Both the position numbers and the translations under genes were made by a program. From Laetmonice hystrix (lineage: Eukaryota): a DNA stretch of 64,000 bases. Every line of letters starts with the position of its first letter. Within the stretch, counting starts at the first letter, position 1. The notes under the pieces are model-generated. The model did not search any database. It had not been told where the DNA came from and saw only the letters and a program-made list of their open reading frames with translations. Positions 1-64,000 of this stretch are shown piece after piece. Where the stretch lies: positions 21,826,001 to 21,890,000 of the forward strand of contig OZ249436.1 in the NCBI GenBank assembly GCA_965235115.1, given 5' to 3'.

Positions 1-292
1 ACAAATGGCTAATTTCAACCCTATCTCCCTGAAGATTGATGTTGGGGGGCATTAAAATCTGAACCGAAATGTGGTTAATATTTGGTTGTTGAATAAGGTA
101 GTGTAATTGATAGGCTAATCTATGGACACGAAAATAAATCTTTTTAGAGGAACCTGGCAAACGAAGACTTAGAACCCCATAGTGTGAATCTCCCCACCTG
201 GCCTCTGTCCACAGGAGGCACCCTCCACAAACGAGTCTACGTTTACTCAGTAACCTGCCCTGTACTTCTGTGACAGCCTGCCGCGGCTCCAT
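1..292 (-). CDS. His-Cys box endonuclease, 5' part (cut by window edge)
   Basis: Same sequence as 2545-2836. Confidence 0.75.
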   Translation of the reverse strand, partial: MEPRQAVTEVQGRLLSKRRLVCGGCLLWTEARWGDSHYGVLSLRLPGSSKKIYFRVHRLAYQLHYLIQQPNINHISVQILMPPNINLQGDRVEISHL

Positions 293-390
293 GATGCTTT
301 GGTGGGTATGGGTGACACTCTCTGAATGTTGACTTTGGCAACCAGAAGTAAAATTCCTTTGTATAGTGAGTTTCCCATCAGGCCCCTACA

Positions 391-838
391 GGTTATGATC
401 CACTATTTATTTTCTTCTATAATTTAATGTAATGTTTTGGCCATTTTCAATGTTTAAAATAATTTCTGCGAATGTCTGCTTGGCATGGCAGGTTAGATAT
501 GCATGTTTCCGACAATAAAAACTCAATTTACGTATAGGTTGAATGATTAGATTTTATTTTATCGGAGCTTCTGTTACATGACCCCAGGTGGCACCACCAA
601 ATCGACCAGAATACAGGCCTGTGATACATAACATATTGGCTAAGATTTTCCAAGGAAAGTTAAGCAGATATTCTCTAATAATACACTGATATTATTGATC
701 ATATAGTGAACTTTTTCTCTGTGGTATTTGATGAGCACATTCAGGGGGGTTATATCCATTCTTGGCCCTAGATACATTCACTCCATACCATTTTGAGGGA
801 CAACCAGCAGCCCATTGGCTAAATAGGGGGTCATGACC
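391..838 (+). repeat. LTDR copy 1 (448 bp, imperfect ~19-bp TIRs)
   Basis: Starts ggttatgatccactattta and ends taaatagggggtcatgacc (revcomp ggtcatgaccccctattta, 16/19 match). TACA lies on both sides. The solo copies at 49.8-62.4 kb confirm the boundaries. Confidence 0.92.
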
Positions 839-1454
839 TACAGATCAAGACCCATCACCCCGAATCTGTTCAAAATTGGACCCCTTTAATGGTTATATGT
901 TTGCAACAACCACACAAAATATAAATGGTGTAGACTAAATGAAGACTGAGTTATCGATCATATACAATATGGACACTCGGAGATAAAAAAAACCCTATTT
1001 TGCCCTGCACTCATAGCAGTATTCTGACTTTGTGCACAAATTAGACAATGAATAAATTCATCTATGAACTTCTCATTTTAGTTATGTATTAAGCCAACAT
1101 GTAAAGTGTTCAAAAGTTGAAATTAATAAATATAAAGTGAGAATCTTCATTCCCTATGAAGCATGTGAGTACCCCCTGTCATATTTTCAGTAAAAAAAAA
1201 GGTCCACTTTATTATATTTATCCCCATATCTCCCTATGTTGGATTTCAAAAGTGTCAAATTCAGTTGAGGGAATATGGGAAGGATGTTAACTTCAAAGAA
1301 ACATCAAAAGAGATGTACTCCAAGTGTCTGTGTGGATGTATGGACCCCTCAAAGGTGGTCACCCACCCCAGGCAGGAAGCCTAGGTTAATAGGGGGAGGG
1401 GTTCAAAGGTGCCACTTGAGAGTCTGAGCTGCCTGGGAAGAGGGTGGGAGTGGG

Positions 1455-1488
1455 TATATATGAAGCCAACAGGCAGATCAAACTCAGT
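1455..1488 (+). promoter_or_regulatory. TATA box + initiator of the transposase transcription unit (repeated in each unit)
   Basis: TATATATGAA at 1455 and TCAGT Inr at 1484-1488, ~30 nt apart. Kozak-like accATG follows at 1566. Confidence 0.55.
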
Positions 1489-1565
1489 ATCATTTTTCTG
1501 TTTGATTAGAACAGGATTTAAAAAAAAATTCGCCTAAATTATAGAGAATTTCTTAGAAAACTACC

Positions 1566-2347
1566 ATGACATCACGTAGCAGAAAGAAGCACAGCTGGAG
1601 ACATGGCTTTCAACCTGGTAACTGCGCCTACAAGTTGAGAAAGCAGGCCGGTAGGCCTGAACCAGACGTAGGTGTCTATGTAAGACCCACCAAAGAAGAA
1701 TTCGAATTACTCCGCTCACCTACACACAGTGGAAGAGGAGATCAGGCTGCAGCCACCATCACCGACAGTGAGGGCCGGCTGTGCAAGGCAAGGCCTTGCA
1801 AACAAAAAAAAAGAAAAACTGGCTGTCACACAGTGCATTCCTGCCTGAGGGCTTTGGCCTTACATGCACGGATGGTGACAAGGAGAAACTGGTCAGACTG
1901 ATTGAATACAGGCTGGGCCAGAAAGTCCTGGAAAAGACCAAACACCTGTTAACCACCCAGAAATGTGAAGCTGTCAACAGGGCCATAAGCAGTACAACAC
2001 CCAAGAACAAAACATTTTCAAGGAACTTTGCTGCCAGAGTGCACTGTGCTGTGAATGCTGTGAATCGAGGGATTGGTGATTCAATCCTGAGTCAAACAGA
2101 GTTTGTGGGAGCCCCAGTCACTCCTGGTACACGGGTGACACGTGGCCTGCTGCGACGTCAGCAGCAGGACATGGCCAGAAAACTTGCCAGGGGGTCAACA
2201 AAGAAAAAGAATGCACGAATCAACAAAAGAAGGACACTTTTTAAGCTTAAGGACACCTGCGAACCACAGGATTCTAAAACTTATTACCAGAAAAATCTTG
2301 CCTTGAAACAGACTCAGCACAGTGACCATACCTACACAAAAATGTGA
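1566..2347 (+). pseudogene. Internally deleted, out-of-frame Kolobok-type DDD/E transposase
   Basis: The basic N-terminal ORF (1566) overlaps a -1-frame ORF with YRLG..LEKT..TTQKCEAVNRAISSTTPKNKTFSRNFAARVHCAVNAVNRG. This resembles the last catalytic Glu region of Kolobok/Mutator-like transposases. The total is only ~260 codons and no Asp-containing core is visible. Confidence 0.72.
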
Positions 2348-2419
2348 ACATAAATTATGGCGGTGAGAGAGCTCGGGGTTAGACCTAAACTAAAGCTACA
2401 CCTACCAGGAAAAAAACAG

Positions 2420-2836
2420 TTAGGGGGGCCTAGGGGTGTGTTCCCGGGTGCAAACTTGCTGTGCATTACAAACACGTCTTGCAGCATTCACTGGACGTGG
2501 CTCAAGGGTCAGGTGGGAGGGATTCACACACAGGGTTTGGTGGCACAAATGGCTAATTTCAACCCTATCTCCCTGAAGATTGATGTTGGGGGGCATTAAA
2601 ATCTGAACCGAAATGTGGTTAATATTTGGTTGTTGAATAAGGTAGTGTAATTGATAGGCTAATCTATGGACACGAAAATAAATCTTTTTAGAGGAACCTG
2701 GCAAACGAAGACTTAGAACCCCATAGTGTGAATCTCCCCACCTGGCCTCTGTCCACAGGAGGCACCCTCCACAAACGAGTCTACGTTTACTCAGTAACCT
2801 GCCCTGTACTTCTGTGACAGCCTGCCGCGGCTCCAT
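2420..2836 (-). CDS. His-Me finger / His-Cys box (I-PpoI-like) endonuclease, 138 aa
   Basis: Motifs CLLW..YG..RVHRLAY..EISHLCHQTLCVNPSHLTLEPRPVNAARRVC..C..H match the zinc-binding loop of His-Cys box homing endonucleases (SHLCH..CVNP.HL..E...N..R..C). Confidence 0.88.
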   Translation of the reverse strand: MEPRQAVTEVQGRLLSKRRLVCGGCLLWTEARWGDSHYGVLSLRLPGSSKKIYFRVHRLAYQLHYLIQQPNINHISVQILMPPNINLQGDRVEISHLCHQTLCVNPSHLTLEPRPVNAARRVCNAQQVCTREHTPRPP

Positions 2837-2934
2837 GATGCTTTGGTGGGTATGGGTGACACTCTCTGAATGTTGACTTTGGCAACCAGAAGTAAAATTC
2901 CTTTGTATAGTGAGTTTCCCATCAGGCCCCTACA

Positions 2935-3382
2935 GGTTATGATCCACTATTTATTTTCTTCTATAATTTAATGTAATGTTTTGGCCATTTTCAATGTTTA
3001 AAATAATTTCTGCGAATGTCTGCTTGGCATGGCAGGTTAGATATGCATGTTTCCGACAATAAAAACTCAATTTACGTATAGGTTGAATGATTAGATTTTA
3101 TTTTATCGGAGCTTCTGTTACATGACCCCAGGTGGCACCACCAAATCGACCAGAATACAGGCCTGTGATACATAACATATTGGCTAAGATTTTCCAAGGA
3201 AAGTTAAGCAGATATTCTCTAATAATACACTGATATTATTGATCATATAGTGAACTTTTTCTCTGTGGTATTTGATGAGCACATTCAGGGGGGTTATATC
3301 CATTCTTGGCCCTAGATACATTCACTCCATACCATTTTGAGGGACAACCAGCAGCCCATTGGCTAAATAGGGGGTCATGACC
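2935..3382 (+). repeat. LTDR copy 2
   Basis: Same sequence as 391-838. Confidence 0.92.
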
Positions 3383-4109
3383 TACAGATCAAGACCCATC
3401 ACCCCGAATCTGTTCAAAATTGGACCCCTTTAATGGTTATATGTTTGCAACAACCACACAAAATATAAATGGTGTAGACTAAATGAAGACTGAGTTATCG
3501 ATCATATACAATATGGACACTCGGAGATAAAAAAAACCCTATTTTGCCCTGCACTCATAGCAGTATTCTGACTTTGTGCACAAATTAGACAATGAATAAA
3601 TTCATCTATGAACTTCTCATTTTAGTTATGTATTAAGCCAACATGTAAAGTGTTCAAAAGTTGAAATTAATAAATATAAAGTGAGAATCTTCATTCCCTA
3701 TGAAGCATGTGAGTACCCCCTGTCATATTTTCAGTAAAAAAAAAGGTCCACTTTATTATATTTATCCCCATATCTCCCTATGTTGGATTTCAAAAGTGTC
3801 AAATTCAGTTGAGGGAATATGGGAAGGATGTTAACTTCAAAGAAACATCAAAAGAGATGTACTCCAAGTGTCTGTGTGGATGTATGGACCCCTCAAAGGT
3901 GGTCACCCACCCCAGGCAGGAAGCCTAGGTTAATAGGGGGAGGGGTTCAAAGGTGCCACTTGAGAGTCTGAGCTGCCTGGGAAGAGGGTGGGAGTGGGTA
4001 TATATGAAGCCAACAGGCAGATCAAACTCAGTATCATTTTTCTGTTTGATTAGAACAGGATTTAAAAAAAAATTCGCCTAAATTATAGAGAATTTCTTAG
4101 AAAACTACC

Positions 4110-4891
4110 ATGACATCACGTAGCAGAAAGAAGCACAGCTGGAGACATGGCTTTCAACCTGGTAACTGCGCCTACAAGTTGAGAAAGCAGGCCGGTAGGC
4201 CTGAACCAGACGTAGGTGTCTATGTAAGACCCACCAAAGAAGAATTCGAATTACTCCGCTCACCTACACACAGTGGAAGAGGAGATCAGGCTGCAGCCAC
4301 CATCACCGACAGTGAGGGCCGGCTGTGCAAGGCAAGGCCTTGCAAACAAAAAAAAAGAAAAACTGGCTGTCACACAGTGCATTCCTGCCTGAGGGCTTTG
4401 GCCTTACATGCACGGATGGTGACAAGGAGAAACTGGTCAGACTGATTGAATACAGGCTGGGCCAGAAAGTCCTGGAAAAGACCAAACACCTGTTAACCAC
4501 CCAGAAATGTGAAGCTGTCAACAGGGCCATAAGCAGTACAACACCCAAGAACAAAACATTTTCAAGGAACTTTGCTGCCAGAGTGCACTGTGCTGTGAAT
4601 GCTGTGAATCGAGGGATTGGTGATTCAATCCTGAGTCAAACAGAGTTTGTGGGAGCCCCAGTCACTCCTGGTACACGGGTGACACGTGGCCTGCTGCGAC
4701 GTCAGCAGCAGGACATGGCCAGAAAACTTGCCAGGGGGTCAACAAAGAAAAAGAATGCACGAATCAACAAAAGAAGGACACTTTTTAAGCTTAAGGACAC
4801 CTGCGAACCACAGGATTCTAAAACTTATTACCAGAAAAATCTTGCCTTGAAACAGACTCAGCACAGTGACCATACCTACACAAAAATGTGA
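4110..4891 (+). pseudogene. Deleted Kolobok-type transposase, copy 2
   Basis: Identical translation to 1566-2347. Confidence 0.72.
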
Positions 4892-4963
4892 ACATAAATT
4901 ATGGCGGTGAGAGAGCTCGGGGTTAGACCTAAACTAAAGCTACACCTACCAGGAAAAAAACAG

Positions 4964-5380
4964 TTAGGGGGGCCTAGGGGTGTGTTCCCGGGTGCAAACT
5001 TGCTGTGCATTACAAACACGTCTTGCAGCATTCACTGGACGTGGCTCAAGGGTCAGGTGGGAGGGATTCACACACAGGGTTTGGTGGCACAAATGGCTAA
5101 TTTCAACCCTATCTCCCTGAAGATTGATGTTGGGGGGCATTAAAATCTGAACCGAAATGTGGTTAATATTTGGTTGTTGAATAAGGTAGTGTAATTGATA
5201 GGCTAATCTATGGACACGAAAATAAATCTTTTTAGAGGAACCTGGCAAACGAAGACTTAGAACCCCATAGTGTGAATCTCCCCACCTGGCCTCTGTCCAC
5301 AGGAGGCACCCTCCACAAACGAGTCTACGTTTACTCAGTAACCTGCCCTGTACTTCTGTGACAGCCTGCCGCGGCTCCAT
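4964..5380 (-). CDS. His-Cys box endonuclease copy
   Basis: Identical to 2420-2836. Confidence 0.88.
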   Translation of the reverse strand: MEPRQAVTEVQGRLLSKRRLVCGGCLLWTEARWGDSHYGVLSLRLPGSSKKIYFRVHRLAYQLHYLIQQPNINHISVQILMPPNINLQGDRVEISHLCHQTLCVNPSHLTLEPRPVNAARRVCNAQQVCTREHTPRPP

Positions 5381-5478
5381 GATGCTTTGGTGGGTATGGG
5401 TGACACTCTCTGAATGTTGACTTTGGCAACCAGAAGTAAAATTCCTTTGTATAGTGAGTTTCCCATCAGGCCCCTACA

Positions 5479-5926
5479 GGTTATGATCCACTATTTATTT
5501 TCTTCTATAATTTAATGTAATGTTTTGGCCATTTTCAATGTTTAAAATAATTTCTGCGAATGTCTGCTTGGCATGGCAGGTTAGATATGCATGTTTCCGA
5601 CAATAAAAACTCAATTTACGTATAGGTTGAATGATTAGATTTTATTTTATCGGAGCTTCTGTTACATGACCCCAGGTGGCACCACCAAATCGACCAGAAT
5701 ACAGGCCTGTGATACATAACATATTGGCTAAGATTTTCCAAGGAAAGTTAAGCAGATATTCTCTAATAATACACTGATATTATTGATCATATAGTGAACT
5801 TTTTCTCTGTGGTATTTGATGAGCACATTCAGGGGGGTTATATCCATTCTTGGCCCTAGATACATTCACTCCATACCATTTTGAGGGACAACCAGCAGCC
5901 CATTGGCTAAATAGGGGGTCATGACC
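5479..5926 (+). repeat. LTDR copy 3
   Basis: Same sequence as 391-838. Confidence 0.92.
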
Positions 5927-6653
5927 TACAGATCAAGACCCATCACCCCGAATCTGTTCAAAATTGGACCCCTTTAATGGTTATATGTTTGCAACAACCA
6001 CACAAAATATAAATGGTGTAGACTAAATGAAGACTGAGTTATCGATCATATACAATATGGACACTCGGAGATAAAAAAAACCCTATTTTGCCCTGCACTC
6101 ATAGCAGTATTCTGACTTTGTGCACAAATTAGACAATGAATAAATTCATCTATGAACTTCTCATTTTAGTTATGTATTAAGCCAACATGTAAAGTGTTCA
6201 AAAGTTGAAATTAATAAATATAAAGTGAGAATCTTCATTCCCTATGAAGCATGTGAGTACCCCCTGTCATATTTTCAGTAAAAAAAAAGGTCCACTTTAT
6301 TATATTTATCCCCATATCTCCCTATGTTGGATTTCAAAAGTGTCAAATTCAGTTGAGGGAATATGGGAAGGATGTTAACTTCAAAGAAACATCAAAAGAG
6401 ATGTACTCCAAGTGTCTGTGTGGATGTATGGACCCCTCAAAGGTGGTCACCCACCCCAGGCAGGAAGCCTAGGTTAATAGGGGGAGGGGTTCAAAGGTGC
6501 CACTTGAGAGTCTGAGCTGCCTGGGAAGAGGGTGGGAGTGGGTATATATGAAGCCAACAGGCAGATCAAACTCAGTATCATTTTTCTGTTTGATTAGAAC
6601 AGGATTTAAAAAAAAATTCGCCTAAATTATAGAGAATTTCTTAGAAAACTACC

Positions 6654-7435
6654 ATGACATCACGTAGCAGAAAGAAGCACAGCTGGAGACATGGCTTTCA
6701 ACCTGGTAACTGCGCCTACAAGTTGAGAAAGCAGGCCGGTAGGCCTGAACCAGACGTAGGTGTCTATGTAAGACCCACCAAAGAAGAATTCGAATTACTC
6801 CGCTCACCTACACACAGTGGAAGAGGAGATCAGGCTGCAGCCACCATCACCGACAGTGAGGGCCGGCTGTGCAAGGCAAGGCCTTGCAAACAAAAAAAAA
6901 GAAAAACTGGCTGTCACACAGTGCATTCCTGCCTGAGGGCTTTGGCCTTACATGCACGGATGGTGACAAGGAGAAACTGGTCAGACTGATTGAATACAGG
7001 CTGGGCCAGAAAGTCCTGGAAAAGACCAAACACCTGTTAACCACCCAGAAATGTGAAGCTGTCAACAGGGCCATAAGCAGTACAACACCCAAGAACAAAA
7101 CATTTTCAAGGAACTTTGCTGCCAGAGTGCACTGTGCTGTGAATGCTGTGAATCGAGGGATTGGTGATTCAATCCTGAGTCAAACAGAGTTTGTGGGAGC
7201 CCCAGTCACTCCTGGTACACGGGTGACACGTGGCCTGCTGCGACGTCAGCAGCAGGACATGGCCAGAAAACTTGCCAGGGGGTCAACAAAGAAAAAGAAT
7301 GCACGAATCAACAAAAGAAGGACACTTTTTAAGCTTAAGGACACCTGCGAACCACAGGATTCTAAAACTTATTACCAGAAAAATCTTGCCTTGAAACAGA
7401 CTCAGCACAGTGACCATACCTACACAAAAATGTGA
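6654..7435 (+). pseudogene. Deleted Kolobok-type transposase, copy 3
   Basis: Identical translation to 1566-2347. Confidence 0.72.
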
Positions 7436-7507
7436 ACATAAATTATGGCGGTGAGAGAGCTCGGGGTTAGACCTAAACTAAAGCTACACCTACCAGGAAA
7501 AAAACAG

Positions 7508-7924
7508 TTAGGGGGGCCTAGGGGTGTGTTCCCGGGTGCAAACTTGCTGTGCATTACAAACACGTCTTGCAGCATTCACTGGACGTGGCTCAAGGGTCAG
7601 GTGGGAGGGATTCACACACAGGGTTTGGTGGCACAAATGGCTAATTTCAACCCTATCTCCCTGAAGATTGATGTTGGGGGGCATTAAAATCTGAACCGAA
7701 ATGTGGTTAATATTTGGTTGTTGAATAAGGTAGTGTAATTGATAGGCTAATCTATGGACACGAAAATAAATCTTTTTAGAGGAACCTGGCAAACGAAGAC
7801 TTAGAACCCCATAGTGTGAATCTCCCCACCTGGCCTCTGTCCACAGGAGGCACCCTCCACAAACGAGTCTACGTTTACTCAGTAACCTGCCCTGTACTTC
7901 TGTGACAGCCTGCCGCGGCTCCAT
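7508..7924 (-). CDS. His-Cys box endonuclease copy
   Basis: Identical to 2420-2836. Confidence 0.88.
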   Translation of the reverse strand: MEPRQAVTEVQGRLLSKRRLVCGGCLLWTEARWGDSHYGVLSLRLPGSSKKIYFRVHRLAYQLHYLIQQPNINHISVQILMPPNINLQGDRVEISHLCHQTLCVNPSHLTLEPRPVNAARRVCNAQQVCTREHTPRPP

Positions 7925-8022
7925 GATGCTTTGGTGGGTATGGGTGACACTCTCTGAATGTTGACTTTGGCAACCAGAAGTAAAATTCCTTTGTATAGTG
8001 AGTTTCCCATCAGGCCCCTACA

Positions 8023-8470
8023 GGTTATGATCCACTATTTATTTTCTTCTATAATTTAATGTAATGTTTTGGCCATTTTCAATGTTTAAAATAATTTCTG
8101 CGAATGTCTGCTTGGCATGGCAGGTTAGATATGCATGTTTCCGACAATAAAAACTCAATTTACGTATAGGTTGAATGATTAGATTTTATTTTATCGGAGC
8201 TTCTGTTACATGACCCCAGGTGGCACCACCAAATCGACCAGAATACAGGCCTGTGATACATAACATATTGGCTAAGATTTTCCAAGGAAAGTTAAGCAGA
8301 TATTCTCTAATAATACACTGATATTATTGATCATATAGTGAACTTTTTCTCTGTGGTATTTGATGAGCACATTCAGGGGGGTTATATCCATTCTTGGCCC
8401 TAGATACATTCACTCCATACCATTTTGAGGGACAACCAGCAGCCCATTGGCTAAATAGGGGGTCATGACC
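8023..8470 (+). repeat. LTDR copy 4
   Basis: Same sequence as 391-838. Confidence 0.92.
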
Positions 8471-9197
8471 TACAGATCAAGACCCATCACCCCGAATCTG
8501 TTCAAAATTGGACCCCTTTAATGGTTATATGTTTGCAACAACCACACAAAATATAAATGGTGTAGACTAAATGAAGACTGAGTTATCGATCATATACAAT
8601 ATGGACACTCGGAGATAAAAAAAACCCTATTTTGCCCTGCACTCATAGCAGTATTCTGACTTTGTGCACAAATTAGACAATGAATAAATTCATCTATGAA
8701 CTTCTCATTTTAGTTATGTATTAAGCCAACATGTAAAGTGTTCAAAAGTTGAAATTAATAAATATAAAGTGAGAATCTTCATTCCCTATGAAGCATGTGA
8801 GTACCCCCTGTCATATTTTCAGTAAAAAAAAAGGTCCACTTTATTATATTTATCCCCATATCTCCCTATGTTGGATTTCAAAAGTGTCAAATTCAGTTGA
8901 GGGAATATGGGAAGGATGTTAACTTCAAAGAAACATCAAAAGAGATGTACTCCAAGTGTCTGTGTGGATGTATGGACCCCTCAAAGGTGGTCACCCACCC
9001 CAGGCAGGAAGCCTAGGTTAATAGGGGGAGGGGTTCAAAGGTGCCACTTGAGAGTCTGAGCTGCCTGGGAAGAGGGTGGGAGTGGGTATATATGAAGCCA
9101 ACAGGCAGATCAAACTCAGTATCATTTTTCTGTTTGATTAGAACAGGATTTAAAAAAAAATTCGCCTAAATTATAGAGAATTTCTTAGAAAACTACC

Positions 9198-9979
9198 ATG
9201 ACATCACGTAGCAGAAAGAAGCACAGCTGGAGACATGGCTTTCAACCTGGTAACTGCGCCTACAAGTTGAGAAAGCAGGCCGGTAGGCCTGAACCAGACG
9301 TAGGTGTCTATGTAAGACCCACCAAAGAAGAATTCGAATTACTCCGCTCACCTACACACAGTGGAAGAGGAGATCAGGCTGCAGCCACCATCACCGACAG
9401 TGAGGGCCGGCTGTGCAAGGCAAGGCCTTGCAAACAAAAAAAAAGAAAAACTGGCTGTCACACAGTGCATTCCTGCCTGAGGGCTTTGGCCTTACATGCA
9501 CGGATGGTGACAAGGAGAAACTGGTCAGACTGATTGAATACAGGCTGGGCCAGAAAGTCCTGGAAAAGACCAAACACCTGTTAACCACCCAGAAATGTGA
9601 AGCTGTCAACAGGGCCATAAGCAGTACAACACCCAAGAACAAAACATTTTCAAGGAACTTTGCTGCCAGAGTGCACTGTGCTGTGAATGCTGTGAATCGA
9701 GGGATTGGTGATTCAATCCTGAGTCAAACAGAGTTTGTGGGAGCCCCAGTCACTCCTGGTACACGGGTGACACGTGGCCTGCTGCGACGTCAGCAGCAGG
9801 ACATGGCCAGAAAACTTGCCAGGGGGTCAACAAAGAAAAAGAATGCACGAATCAACAAAAGAAGGACACTTTTTAAGCTTAAGGACACCTGCGAACCACA
9901 GGATTCTAAAACTTATTACCAGAAAAATCTTGCCTTGAAACAGACTCAGCACAGTGACCATACCTACACAAAAATGTGA
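9198..9979 (+). pseudogene. Deleted Kolobok-type transposase, copy 4
   Basis: Identical translation to 1566-2347. Confidence 0.72.
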
Positions 9980-10051
9980 ACATAAATTATGGCGGTGAGA
10001 GAGCTCGGGGTTAGACCTAAACTAAAGCTACACCTACCAGGAAAAAAACAG

Positions 10052-10468
10052 TTAGGGGGGCCTAGGGGTGTGTTCCCGGGTGCAAACTTGCTGTGCATTA
10101 CAAACACGTCTTGCAGCATTCACTGGACGTGGCTCAAGGGTCAGGTGGGAGGGATTCACACACAGGGTTTGGTGGCACAAATGGCTAATTTCAACCCTAT
10201 CTCCCTGAAGATTGATGTTGGGGGGCATTAAAATCTGAACCGAAATGTGGTTAATATTTGGTTGTTGAATAAGGTAGTGTAATTGATAGGCTAATCTATG
10301 GACACGAAAATAAATCTTTTTAGAGGAACCTGGCAAACGAAGACTTAGAACCCCATAGTGTGAATCTCCCCACCTGGCCTCTGTCCACAGGAGGCACCCT
10401 CCACAAACGAGTCTACGTTTACTCAGTAACCTGCCCTGTACTTCTGTGACAGCCTGCCGCGGCTCCAT
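10052..10468 (-). CDS. His-Cys box endonuclease copy
   Basis: Identical to 2420-2836. Confidence 0.88.
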   Translation of the reverse strand: MEPRQAVTEVQGRLLSKRRLVCGGCLLWTEARWGDSHYGVLSLRLPGSSKKIYFRVHRLAYQLHYLIQQPNINHISVQILMPPNINLQGDRVEISHLCHQTLCVNPSHLTLEPRPVNAARRVCNAQQVCTREHTPRPP

Positions 10469-10566
10469 GATGCTTTGGTGGGTATGGGTGACACTCTCTG
10501 AATGTTGACTTTGGCAACCAGAAGTAAAATTCCTTTGTATAGTGAGTTTCCCATCAGGCCCCTACA

Positions 10567-11014
10567 GGTTATGATCCACTATTTATTTTCTTCTATAATT
10601 TAATGTAATGTTTTGGCCATTTTCAATGTTTAAAATAATTTCTGCGAATGTCTGCTTGGCATGGCAGGTTAGATATGCATGTTTCCGACAATAAAAACTC
10701 AATTTACGTATAGGTTGAATGATTAGATTTTATTTTATCGGAGCTTCTGTTACATGACCCCAGGTGGCACCACCAAATCGACCAGAATACAGGCCTGTGA
10801 TACATAACATATTGGCTAAGATTTTCCAAGGAAAGTTAAGCAGATATTCTCTAATAATACACTGATATTATTGATCATATAGTGAACTTTTTCTCTGTGG
10901 TATTTGATGAGCACATTCAGGGGGGTTATATCCATTCTTGGCCCTAGATACATTCACTCCATACCATTTTGAGGGACAACCAGCAGCCCATTGGCTAAAT
11001 AGGGGGTCATGACC
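10567..11014 (+). repeat. LTDR copy 5
   Basis: Same sequence as 391-838. Confidence 0.92.
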
Positions 11015-11741
11015 TACAGATCAAGACCCATCACCCCGAATCTGTTCAAAATTGGACCCCTTTAATGGTTATATGTTTGCAACAACCACACAAAATATAA
11101 ATGGTGTAGACTAAATGAAGACTGAGTTATCGATCATATACAATATGGACACTCGGAGATAAAAAAAACCCTATTTTGCCCTGCACTCATAGCAGTATTC
11201 TGACTTTGTGCACAAATTAGACAATGAATAAATTCATCTATGAACTTCTCATTTTAGTTATGTATTAAGCCAACATGTAAAGTGTTCAAAAGTTGAAATT
11301 AATAAATATAAAGTGAGAATCTTCATTCCCTATGAAGCATGTGAGTACCCCCTGTCATATTTTCAGTAAAAAAAAAGGTCCACTTTATTATATTTATCCC
11401 CATATCTCCCTATGTTGGATTTCAAAAGTGTCAAATTCAGTTGAGGGAATATGGGAAGGATGTTAACTTCAAAGAAACATCAAAAGAGATGTACTCCAAG
11501 TGTCTGTGTGGATGTATGGACCCCTCAAAGGTGGTCACCCACCCCAGGCAGGAAGCCTAGGTTAATAGGGGGAGGGGTTCAAAGGTGCCACTTGAGAGTC
11601 TGAGCTGCCTGGGAAGAGGGTGGGAGTGGGTATATATGAAGCCAACAGGCAGATCAAACTCAGTATCATTTTTCTGTTTGATTAGAACAGGATTTAAAAA
11701 AAAATTCGCCTAAATTATAGAGAATTTCTTAGAAAACTACC

Positions 11742-12523
11742 ATGACATCACGTAGCAGAAAGAAGCACAGCTGGAGACATGGCTTTCAACCTGGTAACTG
11801 CGCCTACAAGTTGAGAAAGCAGGCCGGTAGGCCTGAACCAGACGTAGGTGTCTATGTAAGACCCACCAAAGAAGAATTCGAATTACTCCGCTCACCTACA
11901 CACAGTGGAAGAGGAGATCAGGCTGCAGCCACCATCACCGACAGTGAGGGCCGGCTGTGCAAGGCAAGGCCTTGCAAACAAAAAAAAAGAAAAACTGGCT
12001 GTCACACAGTGCATTCCTGCCTGAGGGCTTTGGCCTTACATGCACGGATGGTGACAAGGAGAAACTGGTCAGACTGATTGAATACAGGCTGGGCCAGAAA
12101 GTCCTGGAAAAGACCAAACACCTGTTAACCACCCAGAAATGTGAAGCTGTCAACAGGGCCATAAGCAGTACAACACCCAAGAACAAAACATTTTCAAGGA
12201 ACTTTGCTGCCAGAGTGCACTGTGCTGTGAATGCTGTGAATCGAGGGATTGGTGATTCAATCCTGAGTCAAACAGAGTTTGTGGGAGCCCCAGTCACTCC
12301 TGGTACACGGGTGACACGTGGCCTGCTGCGACGTCAGCAGCAGGACATGGCCAGAAAACTTGCCAGGGGGTCAACAAAGAAAAAGAATGCACGAATCAAC
12401 AAAAGAAGGACACTTTTTAAGCTTAAGGACACCTGCGAACCACAGGATTCTAAAACTTATTACCAGAAAAATCTTGCCTTGAAACAGACTCAGCACAGTG
12501 ACCATACCTACACAAAAATGTGA
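11742..12523 (+). pseudogene. Deleted Kolobok-type transposase, copy 5
   Basis: Identical translation to 1566-2347. Confidence 0.72.
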
Positions 12524-12595
12524 ACATAAATTATGGCGGTGAGAGAGCTCGGGGTTAGACCTAAACTAAAGCTACACCTACCAGGAAAAAAACAG

Positions 12596-13012
12596 TTAGG
12601 GGGGCCTAGGGGTGTGTTCCCGGGTGCAAACTTGCTGTGCATTACAAACACGTCTTGCAGCATTCACTGGACGTGGCTCAAGGGTCAGGTGGGAGGGATT
12701 CACACACAGGGTTTGGTGGCACAAATGGCTAATTTCAACCCTATCTCCCTGAAGATTGATGTTGGGGGGCATTAAAATCTGAACCGAAATGTGGTTAATA
12801 TTTGGTTGTTGAATAAGGTAGTGTAATTGATAGGCTAATCTATGGACACGAAAATAAATCTTTTTAGAGGAACCTGGCAAACGAAGACTTAGAACCCCAT
12901 AGTGTGAATCTCCCCACCTGGCCTCTGTCCACAGGAGGCACCCTCCACAAACGAGTCTACGTTTACTCAGTAACCTGCCCTGTACTTCTGTGACAGCCTG
13001 CCGCGGCTCCAT
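12596..13012 (-). CDS. His-Cys box endonuclease copy
   Basis: Identical to 2420-2836. Confidence 0.88.
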   Translation of the reverse strand: MEPRQAVTEVQGRLLSKRRLVCGGCLLWTEARWGDSHYGVLSLRLPGSSKKIYFRVHRLAYQLHYLIQQPNINHISVQILMPPNINLQGDRVEISHLCHQTLCVNPSHLTLEPRPVNAARRVCNAQQVCTREHTPRPP

Positions 13013-13110
13013 GATGCTTTGGTGGGTATGGGTGACACTCTCTGAATGTTGACTTTGGCAACCAGAAGTAAAATTCCTTTGTATAGTGAGTTTCCCATCA
13101 GGCCCCTACA

Positions 13111-13558
13111 GGTTATGATCCACTATTTATTTTCTTCTATAATTTAATGTAATGTTTTGGCCATTTTCAATGTTTAAAATAATTTCTGCGAATGTCTGCT
13201 TGGCATGGCAGGTTAGATATGCATGTTTCCGACAATAAAAACTCAATTTACGTATAGGTTGAATGATTAGATTTTATTTTATCGGAGCTTCTGTTACATG
13301 ACCCCAGGTGGCACCACCAAATCGACCAGAATACAGGCCTGTGATACATAACATATTGGCTAAGATTTTCCAAGGAAAGTTAAGCAGATATTCTCTAATA
13401 ATACACTGATATTATTGATCATATAGTGAACTTTTTCTCTGTGGTATTTGATGAGCACATTCAGGGGGGTTATATCCATTCTTGGCCCTAGATACATTCA
13501 CTCCATACCATTTTGAGGGACAACCAGCAGCCCATTGGCTAAATAGGGGGTCATGACC
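13111..13558 (+). repeat. LTDR copy 6
   Basis: Same sequence as 391-838. Confidence 0.92.
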
Positions 13559-14285
13559 TACAGATCAAGACCCATCACCCCGAATCTGTTCAAAATTGGA
13601 CCCCTTTAATGGTTATATGTTTGCAACAACCACACAAAATATAAATGGTGTAGACTAAATGAAGACTGAGTTATCGATCATATACAATATGGACACTCGG
13701 AGATAAAAAAAACCCTATTTTGCCCTGCACTCATAGCAGTATTCTGACTTTGTGCACAAATTAGACAATGAATAAATTCATCTATGAACTTCTCATTTTA
13801 GTTATGTATTAAGCCAACATGTAAAGTGTTCAAAAGTTGAAATTAATAAATATAAAGTGAGAATCTTCATTCCCTATGAAGCATGTGAGTACCCCCTGTC
13901 ATATTTTCAGTAAAAAAAAAGGTCCACTTTATTATATTTATCCCCATATCTCCCTATGTTGGATTTCAAAAGTGTCAAATTCAGTTGAGGGAATATGGGA
14001 AGGATGTTAACTTCAAAGAAACATCAAAAGAGATGTACTCCAAGTGTCTGTGTGGATGTATGGACCCCTCAAAGGTGGTCACCCACCCCAGGCAGGAAGC
14101 CTAGGTTAATAGGGGGAGGGGTTCAAAGGTGCCACTTGAGAGTCTGAGCTGCCTGGGAAGAGGGTGGGAGTGGGTATATATGAAGCCAACAGGCAGATCA
14201 AACTCAGTATCATTTTTCTGTTTGATTAGAACAGGATTTAAAAAAAAATTCGCCTAAATTATAGAGAATTTCTTAGAAAACTACC

Positions 14286-15067
14286 ATGACATCACGTAGC
14301 AGAAAGAAGCACAGCTGGAGACATGGCTTTCAACCTGGTAACTGCGCCTACAAGTTGAGAAAGCAGGCCGGTAGGCCTGAACCAGACGTAGGTGTCTATG
14401 TAAGACCCACCAAAGAAGAATTCGAATTACTCCGCTCACCTACACACAGTGGAAGAGGAGATCAGGCTGCAGCCACCATCACCGACAGTGAGGGCCGGCT
14501 GTGCAAGGCAAGGCCTTGCAAACAAAAAAAAAGAAAAACTGGCTGTCACACAGTGCATTCCTGCCTGAGGGCTTTGGCCTTACATGCACGGATGGTGACA
14601 AGGAGAAACTGGTCAGACTGATTGAATACAGGCTGGGCCAGAAAGTCCTGGAAAAGACCAAACACCTGTTAACCACCCAGAAATGTGAAGCTGTCAACAG
14701 GGCCATAAGCAGTACAACACCCAAGAACAAAACATTTTCAAGGAACTTTGCTGCCAGAGTGCACTGTGCTGTGAATGCTGTGAATCGAGGGATTGGTGAT
14801 TCAATCCTGAGTCAAACAGAGTTTGTGGGAGCCCCAGTCACTCCTGGTACACGGGTGACACGTGGCCTGCTGCGACGTCAGCAGCAGGACATGGCCAGAA
14901 AACTTGCCAGGGGGTCAACAAAGAAAAAGAATGCACGAATCAACAAAAGAAGGACACTTTTTAAGCTTAAGGACACCTGCGAACCACAGGATTCTAAAAC
15001 TTATTACCAGAAAAATCTTGCCTTGAAACAGACTCAGCACAGTGACCATACCTACACAAAAATGTGA
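14286..15067 (+). pseudogene. Deleted Kolobok-type transposase, copy 6
   Basis: Identical translation to 1566-2347. Confidence 0.72.
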
Positions 15068-15139
15068 ACATAAATTATGGCGGTGAGAGAGCTCGGGGTT
15101 AGACCTAAACTAAAGCTACACCTACCAGGAAAAAAACAG

Positions 15140-15556
15140 TTAGGGGGGCCTAGGGGTGTGTTCCCGGGTGCAAACTTGCTGTGCATTACAAACACGTCTT
15201 GCAGCATTCACTGGACGTGGCTCAAGGGTCAGGTGGGAGGGATTCACACACAGGGTTTGGTGGCACAAATGGCTAATTTCAACCCTATCTCCCTGAAGAT
15301 TGATGTTGGGGGGCATTAAAATCTGAACCGAAATGTGGTTAATATTTGGTTGTTGAATAAGGTAGTGTAATTGATAGGCTAATCTATGGACACGAAAATA
15401 AATCTTTTTAGAGGAACCTGGCAAACGAAGACTTAGAACCCCATAGTGTGAATCTCCCCACCTGGCCTCTGTCCACAGGAGGCACCCTCCACAAACGAGT
15501 CTACGTTTACTCAGTAACCTGCCCTGTACTTCTGTGACAGCCTGCCGCGGCTCCAT
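15140..15556 (-). CDS. His-Cys box endonuclease copy
   Basis: Identical to 2420-2836. Confidence 0.88.
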   Translation of the reverse strand: MEPRQAVTEVQGRLLSKRRLVCGGCLLWTEARWGDSHYGVLSLRLPGSSKKIYFRVHRLAYQLHYLIQQPNINHISVQILMPPNINLQGDRVEISHLCHQTLCVNPSHLTLEPRPVNAARRVCNAQQVCTREHTPRPP

Positions 15557-16289
15557 GATGCTTTGGTGGGTATGGGTGACACTCTCTGAATGTTAAGCCA
15601 TTCCAGATAGAGCTATACTTAGCGCTCTATCCTTCGACACCATTATTTTTTAGGTCTATGGCGTCAGAAGGATGTCTATGTTTTAGCATGGTTGGCGTTA
15701 GAGACATAGTTACTATTAAACACCAATAGGAAGTCTACGGAAGCGTATATCGGTCTCGCCCTACGCCTTGGCTATAACTTATGGTGCCTTATTTATCACG
15801 CTATGGTTACCAAGGCGCCTTAATAGTGCTTCTTAAGAAATAAGTCGCCTTAATTAAGGCGCCTTATAACACAAGGTGTCTTAATTAAGGCGCTTAATTA
15901 TAACAACGCGACAGTATGCCTTAATTTAGCGCCTTAAAAATTAAATTAGTACGCCTTAGTTATGGCGTCTTAGCTATCCCCTCCTGTGAAGTAAACTATC
16001 TTTAAGGCGCCTTACTAACACGCCTTAGTAAGAAATTGCCGTAACTAGCATGTCTTAAAAGTACAAGTCAAGTTAATTATGGGCATTATAAATATAAGCA
16101 AGCTAAATTAACAGTGATCACGTCAAATTTTATTTGATAACACCTTACGTTATAACGTAGGATGCTTTACATAGCATGTCTTGTCGGTATAAAATCGGAC
16201 ATGCAGCCGGTTCCGCGTGCAGCTGGGTTTTCCACTCATGTGACGTTGCTTCCTGTGCAGCCCAGATAGGTCAGCATAACATCTGATTA

Positions 16290-46704: not shown

Positions 46705-47570
46705 TATATCTTAGCTACACCTTGCTAATGAGCTTTGGCTGTATCCTTTTTACAACATTAAAAAAATAATTATTTAGGATAAATTACAAAGGGGCGTCTT
46801 GCCTCATATTGGAGGCAAGACGCCCCCTGGAGGCATCTTGCCCCACCCCCGGGGCCTATATCCAAACCATAAAAGCCTGGCAGATTCCCTCTTAATAATT
46901 TTGTTATTTTCGTTTCTTTTGAATGTGGGCCTTCCAACCTGTTATGTTGAATTTAAAGTTAGGGCCTAAGGTGCATGTCCAGACTGGGGGGGGGGGGGGA
47001 GCCCCAAAATTTTAAGGGGGGCCCCTGGCCCCTTTTCCTATTAAAAAGTTATTTTTCTATTTGGGGGGATCTAGATCTATAGCCCCCAGGACAAAAGCCA
47101 AAGTAGGCCAATTTCGGCACCCATATGCCTAGTAGGCCTAGATCAATTTGACACAACCAAAGCGTCTAAAACAAATAAATTTTTCAGGCGTTGTTCAAGG
47201 GAGAGTGCCCTTCAAGATAGTCTATTCTTACCATATTTTCTCATTTGATCTGGGCCATGGCGCAAATTGGGCACTTTTGCTGTGCAATCAGTCGGCCGGG
47301 GAGCGGTTTGACGCGTTGTCGCCAGACGGCCTTCAGTACAAGGCTAGGTGGCGCTGTGGTCACCGTCAGTAAAGCAAGGTATTGGTGACAACAGAAGTTC
47401 ATAAACGTATTTTGTTGTTTTATCATAACGAAGAAAAAGAAAAGTTCCTTCTTCTAAATCAGCATTAATTTTATTGTGAAAATAGCAAGCTTGGATACCT
47501 TATCTCAGAACTAAGGGCATTATCCTTTCAGTATTCCCAAATGAAAAAATGAAACCTTCGTAGATGAAAA

Positions 47571-47592
47571 TACACCATTCTTGATGAGTTAG
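47571..47592 (+). promoter_or_regulatory. Candidate snRNA proximal sequence element (PSE)
   Basis: acaccattct(t/g)gatgagttagg sits ~65-45 nt upstream of U5 and is conserved between both U5 variants while flanks diverge. Confidence 0.5.
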
Positions 47593-47635
47593 GTACTTGA
47601 ACCACTCGACACTTCCCCTCTTCAGTAAATCAGAG

Positions 47636-47757
47636 AACTCACGTTTCTCCTCATTCCACGTATAAATCTTTCGCCTTTTACTAAAGATTTCCGTGGGGAG
47701 GAACATTACAATGAGTCTATAGACGAATTTTTGCATCCCTGCTCTCAGAGCGGGGTA
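47636..47757 (+). ncRNA. U5: U5 spliceosomal snRNA (variant A)
   Basis: Invariant stem-loop 1 aaatctttcGCCTTTTACtaaagatttccgtgg, closing stem actca/tgagt, Sm site AATTTTTG and 3' hairpin ccctgctc-tca-gagcgggg. Ends are accurate to about +/-2 nt. Confidence 0.95.
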
Positions 47758-48277
47758 ATTAAAAAAGGAAGAATAGTCTCCTAACGCAAACTGATTCAGA
47801 CGACGAATGTTGTTTGTAAATAGGCCTAAATAAGATGGAAAAACAAAAATTGTAAAATAGTAAATGAAGAAATTAAGGTTACCGCAAGGAAATATATATT
47901 CCAGTGGTTTCAGAATTATTTTAGGAACATCTCCTCAAAGAGTGGGGAATTTAATGCAAAGGAACTGCATGTTCTGCCTGAAGGCGGCATTATGTACACG
48001 TTACAGGTATAAAATGTTTTCTTTTTATTATAAATGGTTATTCTGCCTGGAAAGAAACAAATAACACAAACACGTAATGGGCCCCCGGACGGGCGCGTTG
48101 GCAACAGAGGTAGACCTACCTGCCTGTTGTCCAAAAGATTACCTATAAATAAATTTTGCAGTTCTTGTTAAAAGGAGACTGCGCTTCAAGATACTCTATT
48201 CTTAGCATATTTTGTCATTTGATCTGGGCCATGGCACAAATTGGGCGCTTTTGCTGTGCAATAAGTCGGCCGGGGAG

Positions 48278-50286: not shown

Positions 50287-50633
50287 GCCGGGGAGCGGTT
50301 TGACGCGTTGTCGCCAGACGGCCTTCAGTGCACAAGGCTATAGGTGGCGCTGTGGTCACCGTAAGTAAACCAAGGTATATGCTGATAACAGAAGTACATA
50401 AACATATTAGCCTATGTTGTTTTATCATAACAAAGAAAAAGAAAAGTTCCTTCTTTTAAATCAGCATTTATTGTGAAAAATAGCAAGCTTGGATACCTTA
50501 TCTCAGACCTAAGGCATTTTCCAGTAAGGACCCCCCCCCCCCCCAAATGAAACATTCGTAGATGAAAAGACACCATTCTGGATGAGTTAGGTACTTGAAC
50601 CACTCGACACTTCCCCTGTTCAGTAAATCAGAG

Positions 50634-50755
50634 AACTCACGTTTCTCCTCATTCCACGTATAAATCTTTCGCCTTTTACTAAAGATTTCCGTGGGGAGGA
50701 ACATTACAATGAGTCTATAGACGAATTTTTGCATCCCTGCTCTAAGAGCGGGGTA
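50634..50755 (+). ncRNA. U5: U5 snRNA (variant B)
   Basis: As variant A, but the 3' hairpin loop reads taa instead of tca. Confidence 0.95.
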
Positions 50756-63925: not shown

Positions 63926-64000
63926 ATTAAAAAAGGAAGAATAGTCTCCTAACGCAAACTGATTCAGACGACGAATGTTGTTTGTAAATAGGCCTAAATA

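What the first reader, a model, noticed from the sequence alone, without database searches (positions are those of the whole stretch)
1..15594. Homing-endonuclease-carrying composite transposon amplified as an apparently perfect head-to-tail array sharing single LTDRs
Seen: [LTDR-internal]n at exactly 2544 bp, where each unit has a His-Cys box nuclease ORF convergent with a transposase remnant, and adjacent units share one 448-bp TIR-bearing module. Known: His-Cys box nucleases are classic rDNA group I intron homing endonucleases (I-PpoI family), and KolobokP transposons pair one with a DDD/E transposase between LTDRs. Inference: this satellite-like expansion arose by LTDR-LTDR unequal recombination or by amplification of a one-LTDR circle, possibly promoted by nuclease breaks.
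Basis: partly seen in the sequence, partly recalled or inferred. Interest (0 to 1): 0.85.

Follow-up and report, generated by a model that had tools for sequence, protein, structure and literature searches.

The report
KolobokP transposon multimer array
This stretch is a head-to-tail array of a crippled KolobokP DNA transposon that still carries a homing-endonuclease-like gene, a structure already described in marine invertebrates in 2022, so it is real but not new.

Summary
Window 1-15594 repeats at exactly 2544 bp with 100% identity (6.13 copies). Each unit holds a 448-bp LTDR with GG..CC termini and short TIRs, a 138-aa ORF matching Pfam zf-His_Me_endon (E 9.4e-14), and a convergent transposase remnant.

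A 4178-bp autonomous copy elsewhere in the genome has two LTDRs, a TGTG target duplication and a 667-aa transposase. It shows that the window unit is a 1223-bp internal-deletion derivative.

- The array runs 4.4 kb further upstream into a 100-N assembly gap, so copy number is a lower bound.
- One upstream unit lacks its LTDR.
- The right end lies inside INT, not at an LTDR.
- The array's nuclease copies lack a near-invariant C-terminal cysteine: 455 such copies genome-wide against 10 that keep it.

The family forms internally near-identical arrays on many contigs. Verdict: a new member of a known kind. One lead is worth following: two roughly 100-kb arrays co-amplify unrelated DNA with a KolobokP insertion.

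The parts
1..15594 (+). Tandem array, period 2544 bp, 6.13 perfect copies in the window. It continues upstream of the window to an assembly gap.
391..838 (+). LTDR copy 1 (448 bp; imperfect TIRs; 5'-GG..CC-3'). Further identical copies lie at 2935-3382, 5479-5926, 8023-8470, 10567-11014 and 13111-13558.
387..390 (.). TACA at the end of INT. The same TACA follows the LTDR at 839-842, so INT starts and ends with the same 4 nt.
   Evidence: same feature reported for KolobokP-1_MeMe (TATA) in PMC9587614
839..1565 (+). Non-coding 5' part of INT, upstream of the transposase start codon.
1566..2347 (+). Transposase remnant in unit 1, repeated every 2544 bp. It is read as two overlapping ORFs (1566-1901 and 1781-2347), corresponding to aa 1-76 and about 486-667 of the 667-aa transposase. 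The catalytic core is deleted.
1794..1797 (+). Junction of the 1223-bp internal deletion relative to the autonomous copy. It lies within a short imperfect direct repeat (TGCAAGGCAA / TGCAAAGCAA).
2420..2836 (-). 138-aa His-Me (His-Cys box) nuclease ORF. Copies also lie at 4964-5380, 7508-7924, 10052-10468, 12596-13012 and 15140-15556. The copy at 2-292 is cut by the window start.
2421..2430 (+). 10-bp insertion (relative to the autonomous copy) that changes the nuclease C-terminus to ...HTPRPP-stop and removes the near-invariant HxPxC cysteine.
15594..15595 (.). Right end of the array at unit position 330, inside INT and 38 bp upstream of the last nuclease ATG. It is not at an LTDR terminus.
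47141..64000 (+). Second array, outside the finding. The unit is ~4040 bp: one LTDR (449 bp, 99.3-99.6% identical to array 1's, flanked by AAAA on both sides) plus 3.6 kb of unrelated, non-coding, repeat-mosaic DNA. It runs on to about 101 kb. LTDRs lie at 49784-50232, 53829-54277, 57869-58317 and 61911-62359.

Best explanation
Window 1-15594 is a multimer of a non-autonomous KolobokP DNA transposon, a lineage of the Kolobok superfamily.

Each 2544-bp unit is one 448-bp LTDR plus a 2096-bp internal region (INT). The INT derives from the autonomous element by a 1223-bp deletion that removes transposase residues ~77-485. [quoted passage not shown] An open His-Me nuclease ORF remains on the opposite strand.

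The array most likely grew in place, after one insertion, by unequal homologous recombination between repeated units on sister chromatids or homologues. The first step would have been between the two LTDRs of a monomer; later steps could use any part of the unit. It grew so recently that the six visible units are still identical.

Whether nuclease-made breaks stimulate this is open. The nuclease copy carried by the array lacks a near-invariant cysteine, so any such activity more probably comes in trans from the roughly ten copies that keep it.

Shown: the anatomy, the family membership, the derivation by deletion, and the pattern of identity within arrays versus divergence between them. Inferred: the recombination mechanism and any role of the nuclease.
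For: Anatomy of the array:
- Exact 2544-bp period.
- LTDR with GG..CC termini and TIRs.

The autonomous copy and the derivation:
- The monomer at L004 2011-6188 is LTDR-INT-LTDR, 4178 bp, with a TGTG duplication on both sides and an INT that starts and ends with TACA.
- It encodes a 667-aa transposase (PF20700, E 3e-52). That protein contains TDPDSSSYRAA, exactly as in KolobokP-4_MaMa_1p, plus the conserved blocks of the published alignment by eye.
- The deletion was mapped to aa 77-485.

The nuclease:
- Pfam, PDB sequence and fold evidence all point to the I-PpoI family.

Growth in place:
- A 32.3-kb array on C29 is LTDR-(INT)15-LTDR, flanked by TTAA on both sides.
- Adjacent units are 100% identical inside two other arrays (2093 and 2548 bp compared), while copies at different loci differ by 0.5-3%.
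- The C1:66.5 Mb array shows LTDR spacings of 2543, 4634 and 6725 bp; their order looks to me like recurring multi-unit blocks, as unequal crossover would give. I read this off the listed coordinates and did not test it.

Not an assembly quirk:
- 513 LTDR 5' ends genome-wide against 0 for the reversed control.
- Contigs from organism A's runs hold unit sequence at depth ~25,000 against ~70 for low-copy flank. They also hold the LTDR-less joint, which skips 452 bp, at depth ~10,000.

The architecture and the models are published in PMC9587614 (abstract, all of Results, part 1 of 2 of the Discussion).
Against: - The array's only visible end (15594) lies inside INT, not at an LTDR. The other end is lost in a 100-N gap. 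So an LTDR-bounded, TSD-flanked structure cannot be shown for this locus.
- No contig listed bridges position 15594.
- Perfect identity could partly reflect consensus polishing.
- Pfam names the transposase family 'Mutator', not Kolobok.
- No family of 4178 or 2992 bp is in Table S1 of the paper, and no LTDR word was found in its sequence file.
- The nuclease ORF is no more conserved than the rest of the unit in the few copies compared: 4.56 variant sites per 100 bp, against 1.56 in the LTDR. Among 3 alleles from 9 gapless copies there were 4 non-synonymous and 3 synonymous changes.
- 455 copies carry the truncated nuclease C-terminus and 10 the complete one.
Confidence: 0.85

Rival explanations
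1. Circle route. Recombination between two LTDRs releases a 2544-bp circle (one LTDR plus one INT). The circle is then amplified, for example by rolling-circle replication, and/or re-integrates into a resident LTDR, giving a homogeneous head-to-tail array.
For: - Six units are identical to the base, as a concatemer of one circle would be.
- INT starts and ends with the same 4 nt, and a clean single-TACA INT-INT junction exists. This is what an LTDR inserted into a circular or tandem INT would give.
- The model is in print (Fig. 5b of PMC9587614).
Against: - Nothing here detects circles.
- The same array contains an LTDR-less unit and units with small indels just upstream.
- Other arrays mix unit types at spacings that look like recurring blocks, which needs further recombination anyway.
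- The visible array end is not at an LTDR.
Confidence: 0.12
2. Assembly artefact: a single element, or a few copies, over-expanded or homogenised by the assembler.
For: - The array abuts a 100-N gap.
- Unit identity is exactly 100%.
- No listed contig bridges the array/flank junction at 15594.
Against: - The same family forms arrays with different periods (2091-2093, 2534, 2543, 2548, 2549, 4918 bp) and different variants on at least 10 contigs.
- One of those arrays is bounded by a matching TTAA duplication.
- Read-derived contigs of another data set hold unit sequence at several hundred times the depth of low-copy flank, and they hold the LTDR-less joint.
- Array 2 in the same window keeps unit-to-unit differences (99.75-100%), so this assembler does not erase variation as a rule.
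Confidence: 0.03
3. Misclassification: the element is a Mutator-like (MULE) transposon that happens to carry an HNH gene, not a KolobokP.
For: The Pfam family matched by the transposase is named 'Mutator-like transposase' (PF20700, E 3e-52). All 17 relatives found carry the same Pfam label.
Against: - Target duplications are 4 bp (TGTG, TTAA, AAAA). MULEs typically make 8-10 bp duplications (recalled, not from a call).
- Termini are 5'-GG..CC-3', as stated for Kolobok.
- The paired LTDR architecture, the convergent His-Me gene, the exact 11-mer and the block-wise similarity to named KolobokP transposases all fit KolobokP.
- A full-text search for PF20700 found 0 papers, so the Pfam label could not be traced further.
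Confidence: 0.03

Closest known systems
KolobokP transposons and their multimers, (LTDR-INT)n-LTDR and LTDR-(INT)n-LTDR (Kojima and Bao 2022, Mob DNA 13:24, PMC9587614)
   Same: - LTDR of ~450 bp with its own short TIRs, RR..YY termini and 3-5 bp target duplications.
- Transposase on one strand and a small His-Me nuclease convergent on the other.
- INT beginning and ending with the same 4 nt.
- Solo LTDRs, multimers sharing LTDRs, and INT-INT junctions that keep one copy of the 4-mer.
- Non-autonomous derivatives of 1.7-3.3 kb.
   Different: - No family of this size (4178 bp autonomous, 2992 bp non-autonomous monomer) is in their Table S1, and no LTDR word is in their sequence file. Line wraps could hide matches.
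- The scale here is larger than in their tables: at least 455 non-autonomous copies, arrays of 30-120 kb, and an LTDR-(INT)15-LTDR where they report n up to 4.
- This particular array is not LTDR-bounded at its visible end.
- The amplified copies carry a nuclease that lacks the HxPxC cysteine.
I-PpoI, the His-Cys box homing endonuclease of a Physarum rDNA group I intron
   Same: - Best PDB match by sequence (E 1e-4), aligned across the SHLCH...C.NP.HL..E....N..R..C active-site stretch.
- Best by fold: ranks 1-4, E 7.5e-4 to 4.4e-3, TM 0.45-0.51; the next hit has E 0.49.
- Pfam zf-His_Me_endon match.
   Different: - 18-19% identity.
- Not intron-encoded; it sits in a DNA transposon.
- Target site unknown.
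- The window copy lacks the last conserved cysteine.
IS26-type translocatable units and pseudo-compound transposon arrays in bacteria
   Same: Directly repeated terminal elements share one copy between adjacent units, and there is a proposed circle of one repeat plus one internal segment. The comparison is made in PMC9587614.
   Different: There the transposase lies in the repeated IS. Here the LTDR is non-coding and the genes lie in INT. The host is eukaryotic, and no nuclease partner is involved in IS26.
Tandem arrays of TRIM/Cassandra LTR retroelements in plants
   Same: Head-to-tail arrays in which neighbours share one terminal direct repeat (cited in PMC9587614).
   Different: Those are retroelements under 1 kb, with template switching in reverse transcription as a possible cause. 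This is a DNA transposon with a 2.5-kb unit.

Membership tests
KolobokP (Kolobok superfamily) | Two long terminal direct repeats of ~450 or ~660 bp, each with short TIRs | tested here: met
   The LTDR is 448 bp and 10 of 13 terminal bases are complementary. The monomer at L004 2011-6188 has two LTDRs identical to each other.
KolobokP (Kolobok superfamily) | Termini 5'-RR ... YY-3' | tested here: met
   GG...CC.
KolobokP (Kolobok superfamily) | Target-site duplication of 3-5 bp (TTAA typical of Kolobok) | tested here: met
   TGTG at the monomer, TTAA at the C29 array and AAAA at the solo LTDR of array 2. It cannot be shown for the window array itself, because one end is truncated and the other lies in a gap.
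KolobokP (Kolobok superfamily) | Kolobok-type DDD/E transposase | tested here: inconclusive
   The 667-aa ORF shares an exact 11-mer with KolobokP-4_MaMa_1p and, by eye, the conserved blocks of Data S3. Pfam labels the family 'Mutator'. No tree or scored alignment against named Kolobok proteins could be run, because the supplement's sequences were not used as tool input.
KolobokP (Kolobok superfamily) | Small His-Me nuclease gene downstream of the transposase, on the complementary strand | tested here: met
   Convergent ORFs in the window (1566-2347 plus, 2420-2836 minus) and in L004 (3193-5196 plus, 5181-5675 minus).
KolobokP (Kolobok superfamily) | Multimers in which neighbours share one LTDR, and INT-INT junctions keeping one copy of the terminal 4-mer | tested here: met
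His-Cys box / His-Me finger homing endonucleases (I-PpoI group) | Sequence-family match | tested here: met
   PF05551 at E 9.4e-14, 52.2 bits against a cut-off of 27. I-PpoI is the only PDB family matched below E 0.01.
His-Cys box / His-Me finger homing endonucleases (I-PpoI group) | Catalytic His and Asn of the beta-beta-alpha-metal motif (H98 and N119 of I-PpoI, as numbered in PMC9587614) | tested here: met
   SHLCH and VN align to SHLCH and DN of I-PpoI. S95, H108, E112 and N117 are invariant and H96 nearly invariant in 28 aligned sequences.
His-Cys box / His-Me finger homing endonucleases (I-PpoI group) | Full set of Cys/His zinc ligands | tested here: not met
   This applies to the window copy. 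The C-terminal HxPxC cysteine is present in 26 of 28 aligned sequences and absent from the window ORF because of a 10-bp insertion. The autonomous copy has it. That this cysteine is a zinc ligand is inferred from its conservation and from recalled I-PpoI structure.
His-Cys box / His-Me finger homing endonucleases (I-PpoI group) | Fold | tested here: met
   AlphaFold2 model with pLDDT 93.5. Foldseek ranks 1-4 are all I-PpoI, probability 0.98-1.00.
His-Cys box / His-Me finger homing endonucleases (I-PpoI group) | Site-specific DNA cleavage and homing | not testable with these tools
   Needs a cleavage assay.

The most novel reading that the evidence does not exclude
A KolobokP LTDR may act as a portable seed of tandem amplification: once inserted, it could turn whatever DNA surrounds it into a large-unit satellite. 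A plausible cause is that the family's nuclease, supplied in trans, keeps breaking the LTDR.

Two loci on this chromosome fit that picture:
- Array 2 of this window is ~101 kb long. Its 4-kb unit is one solo LTDR, flanked by AAAA on both sides, plus unrelated repeat-mosaic DNA. The array ends lie in that DNA, not at LTDRs.
- At C1:72.15-72.26 Mb, one TGTG insertion site, holding either a monomer or a solo LTDR, recurs at least 26 times together with 2.6-4.3 kb of flanking DNA.

I found no mention of such co-amplification in the main text of PMC9587614 (word search).
Probability: 0.2. Interest if true: 0.65.

Novelty: new member of a known kind. Interest (0 to 1): 0.3.

Why it matters
The finding as given adds a well-resolved example to a mechanism still untested since 2022: a eukaryotic DNA transposon that may multiply through homing-endonuclease-induced unequal crossover as well as through transposition.

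The material here is well suited to that test. The genome holds hundreds of near-identical non-autonomous copies in arrays of 20-120 kb and about ten copies with a complete nuclease. It also holds clean LTDR-less junctions, an array of 15 INT units with LTDRs only at its ends, and two arrays in which unrelated DNA was co-amplified with an insertion.

If the nuclease cuts LTDRs, this family would be a defined, sequence-specific generator of large-unit satellite DNA in an animal genome.

Tried and rejected
- **Whole-genome file.** It was not available, so I could not make a genome-wide census of young large-unit arrays. The enrichment of LTDRs in such arrays therefore stays untested.
- **Word-indexed search with the 138-aa ORF.** It returned nothing at 75-242 aa. 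The exhaustive search later found 763 relatives, so the blank was a sensitivity limit.
- **Selection on the nuclease ORF.** There were too few differences: 7 codon changes among 3 alleles of 9 gapless copies, and variant density was no lower than elsewhere in the unit. No conclusion.
- **Chimeric outer LTDRs as a sign of circle integration into a resident LTDR.** I rejected this. Within the true 448 bp, all of array 3's LTDRs equal array 1's, and the earlier apparent difference came from flanking bases.
- **Array 2 as a higher-order repeat of a larger 1046-bp satellite.** Rejected: no unit homology in 9 kb of left flank or 5.8 kb of right flank.
- **Coding content of array 2's internal DNA.** 13 open frames (out of 34 of at least 50 aa) had no Pfam family at E <= 0.01.
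- **Laid contigs.** No listed piece bridges 15594, so the array/flank junction is neither supported nor contradicted. The marine-metagenome runs X1 and X2 hold unit sequence at low depth only.
- **Paper supplements.** No family of 4178 or 2992 bp in Table S1, and no LTDR word in file 4. Wrapped lines could hide matches. The nuclease alignment (Data S4) omits the C-terminal zinc region, so it did not help with the missing cysteine.
- **Literature.** A search for PF20700 gave 0 papers. A search for Kolobok/tandem/bivalve/satellite listed no later paper on KolobokP arrays among the 20 titles shown out of 136 (listing only).
- **Earlier findings of this scan.** None for this genome.


Full report
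**1. The observation**

The repeat is real. At lag 2544 the window matches itself at every one of the compared positions of 1-15594. Neighbouring lags give 0.26-0.30, and 13,031 20-mers recur at that distance. The first mismatch places the array end at 15594, which gives 6.13 copies. TRF could not see it because its longest period is 500.

**2. Anatomy of the unit**

Each unit has four parts.

- *LTDR.* The 448-bp module occupies 391-838. It begins GGTTATGATCC and ends GGTCATGACC, so 10 of its 13 terminal bases are complementary. TACA lies on both sides.
- *Non-coding stretch.* 839-1565.
- *Transposase remnant.* Two overlapping plus-strand ORFs span 1566-2347.
- *Nuclease ORF.* A 138-aa minus-strand ORF lies at 2420-2836.

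The nuclease evidence is consistent across methods:
- It matches Pfam zf-His_Me_endon at E 9.4e-14, 52.2 bits against a cut-off of 27.
- Its only PDB relatives below E 0.01 are I-PpoI chains, aligned through SHLCH..C.NP.HL..E....N..R..C.
- A model built on 28 sequences has pLDDT 93.5.
- Its four best structural matches are all I-PpoI (E 7.5e-4 to 4.4e-3). The next hit has E 0.49.

**3. The transposase remnant and the family**

The own genome has 627 Mb in 35 contigs, and the window is C1:21826001-21890000. It holds the 188-aa C-terminal ORF at 518 candidate places, of which 150 were scored. Two of those lie in a 670-aa open frame. I fetched one (L004).

L004 contains a complete monomer at 2011-6188:
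- It is 4178 bp long, with two LTDRs that are identical to each other.
- TGTG flanks both outer sides.
- INT begins and ends with TACA.
- It carries a 667-aa ORF and a convergent 164-aa nuclease ORF.

The window unit equals this element minus 1223 bp. The breakpoints sit in a short imperfect repeat, and the deletion removes residues 77-485. Those residues hold the motifs MDSRY (261), TDPDSS (365), DTHH (393) and GDHSLC (473). [quoted passage not shown] The remnant therefore cannot be catalytic.

Pfam calls the 667-aa protein 'Mutator-like' (PF20700, E 3e-52, full-length match), and all 17 relatives found carry the same label. Against that label:
- The 11-mer TDPDSSSYRAA occurs exactly in KolobokP-4_MaMa_1p in Data S3 of PMC9587614, and the surrounding blocks agree by eye.
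- The 4-bp duplications and GG..CC termini fit Kolobok.

I could not run a scored comparison or a tree with the named proteins.

**4. What is known**

Kojima and Bao (2022, PMC9587614) describe KolobokP in seven animal phyla. I read the abstract, all of Results, part 1 of 2 of the Discussion, and parts of supplements 1, 3 and 4. They report:
- LTDRs of ~450 or ~660 bp with 11-18 bp TIRs, RR..YY termini and 3-5 bp duplications.
- A transposase and a convergent His-Me nuclease related to I-PpoI.
- Solo LTDRs and multimers written (LTDR-INT)n-LTDR and LTDR-(INT)n-LTDR.
- INTs that start and end with the same 4-mer, with one copy left at INT-INT junctions.
- Three models for multimers: unequal crossover, a one-LTDR circle, and nuclease-induced unequal crossover.

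The kind is known. The particular family is not in their Table S1 by size, and no LTDR word was found in their sequence file.

**5.

- *Upstream extent.* The array goes on for 4424 bp upstream and stops at a 100-N gap. The assembly holds 8 nuclease copies at this locus, and the true number is unknown.
- *An LTDR-less unit.* The second unit upstream lacks the LTDR. Its junction reads CCCC-TACA-GATC, an exact empty site. Read-derived contigs of organism A carry the same 452-bp skip at depth ~10,000, beside unit contigs at ~25,000 and low-copy flank at ~70.
- *The right end.* It falls at unit position 330, inside INT. A 4.4-kb palindromic element follows, and no further unit sequence appears. For this locus, LTDR-bounded ends and a target duplication cannot be shown.
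- *The nuclease C-terminus.* A 10-bp insertion at 2421-2430 ends the window's nuclease at ...HTPRPP, whereas the autonomous copy reads ...HTPNCFF.... I aligned the two copies with 26 of the 150 listed relatives; 763 relatives have E <= 0.001. In that alignment the HxPxC cysteine is present in 26 of 28 sequences. It is missing only in the window copy and in one truncated relative. Genome-wide, the insertion form has 455 exact matches and the complete form has 10.

**6. Family-wide pattern and mechanism**

The LTDR's first 35 bases occur 513 times (up to 2 mismatches), against 0 for the reversed control. Arrays lie on at least ten contigs, with periods of 2091-2093 (INT only), 2534, 2543, 2544, 2548, 2549 and 4918 bp.

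The C29 array spans 1205942-1238223 (32.3 kb). It has LTDRs only at its two ends, 15 INT units between them, and TTAA on both outer sides. The whole array therefore descends from one insertion, and expansion does not need internal LTDRs.

Adjacent units are 100% identical in two other arrays, while copies at different loci differ by 0.5-3%. The 66.5-Mb array shows LTDR spacings of 2543, 4634 and 6725 bp. Their order looks to me like recurring blocks; I read this off the listed coordinates and did not test it.

Together these observations point to recent growth in place by unequal homologous recombination. Six perfectly identical units at the window locus are equally what a concatemer of one circle would give. 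I cannot exclude that route.

A role for the nuclease is not supported by conservation in the few copies compared. It is made less direct by the truncated C-terminus of the amplified copies.

**7. A lead outside the coordinates**

*Array 2.* The same window holds a second array from 47141 onward, running to C1:21974195 (~101 kb).
- Its ~4040-bp unit contains one LTDR (99.3-99.6% identical to array 1's within the 448 bp) flanked by AAAA on both sides.
- The rest of the unit is 3.6 kb with no Pfam match in 13 tested frames. It is made of pieces that occur dispersed elsewhere in the genome.
- The array ends lie in that DNA, and the flanks share no homology with the unit.

*The 72-Mb locus.* At C1:72.15-72.26 Mb, one TGTG insertion site recurs at least 26 times together with flanking DNA, at periods of 8501 and ~3042 bp. 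The site holds either the autonomous monomer or a solo LTDR.

*How often this happens.* I looked at the 15 independent sites whose 5' flanking base is not A. One is this co-amplified locus and 14 are single. Array 2 has an A flank and is an additional case.

The paper's main text does not mention co-amplification of flanking DNA (word search). Without a genome-wide census of young large-unit arrays I cannot say whether this exceeds chance.

**8. Verdict**

The structure is a new member of a published kind. Interest is modest for the finding as stated. The co-amplified arrays and the 455-to-10 split of nuclease variants are the parts worth following.

Noticed in passing
window 47141-64000, continuing to C1:21974195: A ~101-kb tandem array. 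Its ~4040-bp unit (some units are 2995-2998 bp) is one solo KolobokP LTDR with an AAAA duplication plus unrelated repeat-mosaic DNA. The array ends are not at LTDRs. Inside each unit is an internal ~1046-bp duplication at 88% identity.
   Followed up: partly
G000 C1:72152628-72262684 (loci L004, L012-L014): A host segment carrying one KolobokP insertion site (TGTG) is amplified at least 26 times. Some units hold the autonomous monomer (period 8501 bp) and others a solo LTDR (period ~3042 bp). Five of the ten complete-nuclease copies lie here.
   Followed up: partly
G000 C29:1205942-1238223 (loci L007, L008): LTDR-(INT)15-LTDR with a period of 2093 bp and a TTAA duplication on both sides. The two terminal LTDRs differ from each other at two positions, while adjacent INT units are identical.
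   Followed up: yes
G000 C1:22006776-22055826 (loci L009-L011): A third array of the same family, on the opposite strand, 165 kb from the window array. Its period is 2548 bp. Some units are LTDR-less, and some are interrupted by a 1.8-kb insert at unit position ~1805. All LTDRs found in the three 10-kb loci fetched (L009-L011) equal the window array's.
   Followed up: partly
G000 C30:18952001-18962000 (locus L005): An array variant with a period of 4918 bp: the 2544-bp unit plus a ~2.37-kb foreign insert at unit position ~362-366, amplified together.
   Followed up: no
window 15726-20127: A large palindromic (foldback-like) element directly after the array end. It has nested inverted repeats of 168-416 nt at 95-100% complementarity and TTAAGGCGCC-rich ends.
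   Followed up: no
window 22052-23255: A 127-bp (257-bp dimer) tandem repeat, 9.3 copies, 88-92% matches.
   Followed up: no
window 30510-31966: GGTACC-rich 11/22-bp motifs nested in 112-, 199- and 311-bp tandem repeats (96-97% matches). This is the GC-richest part of the window (0.527).
   Followed up: no
window 36917-37918 (minus strand): An open frame with a long Thr/Pro-rich repeat (TTTTTTP units, encoded by the 21/42-bp repeat at 37263-37711). Further down the same minus-strand read, past stop codons, lies a hydrophobic stretch. It looks like a mucin-like membrane protein exon. No Pfam match.
   Followed up: partly
window -4524 to -4425 (C1:21821477-21821576): A 100-N assembly gap directly at the left end of the array.
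   Followed up: yes
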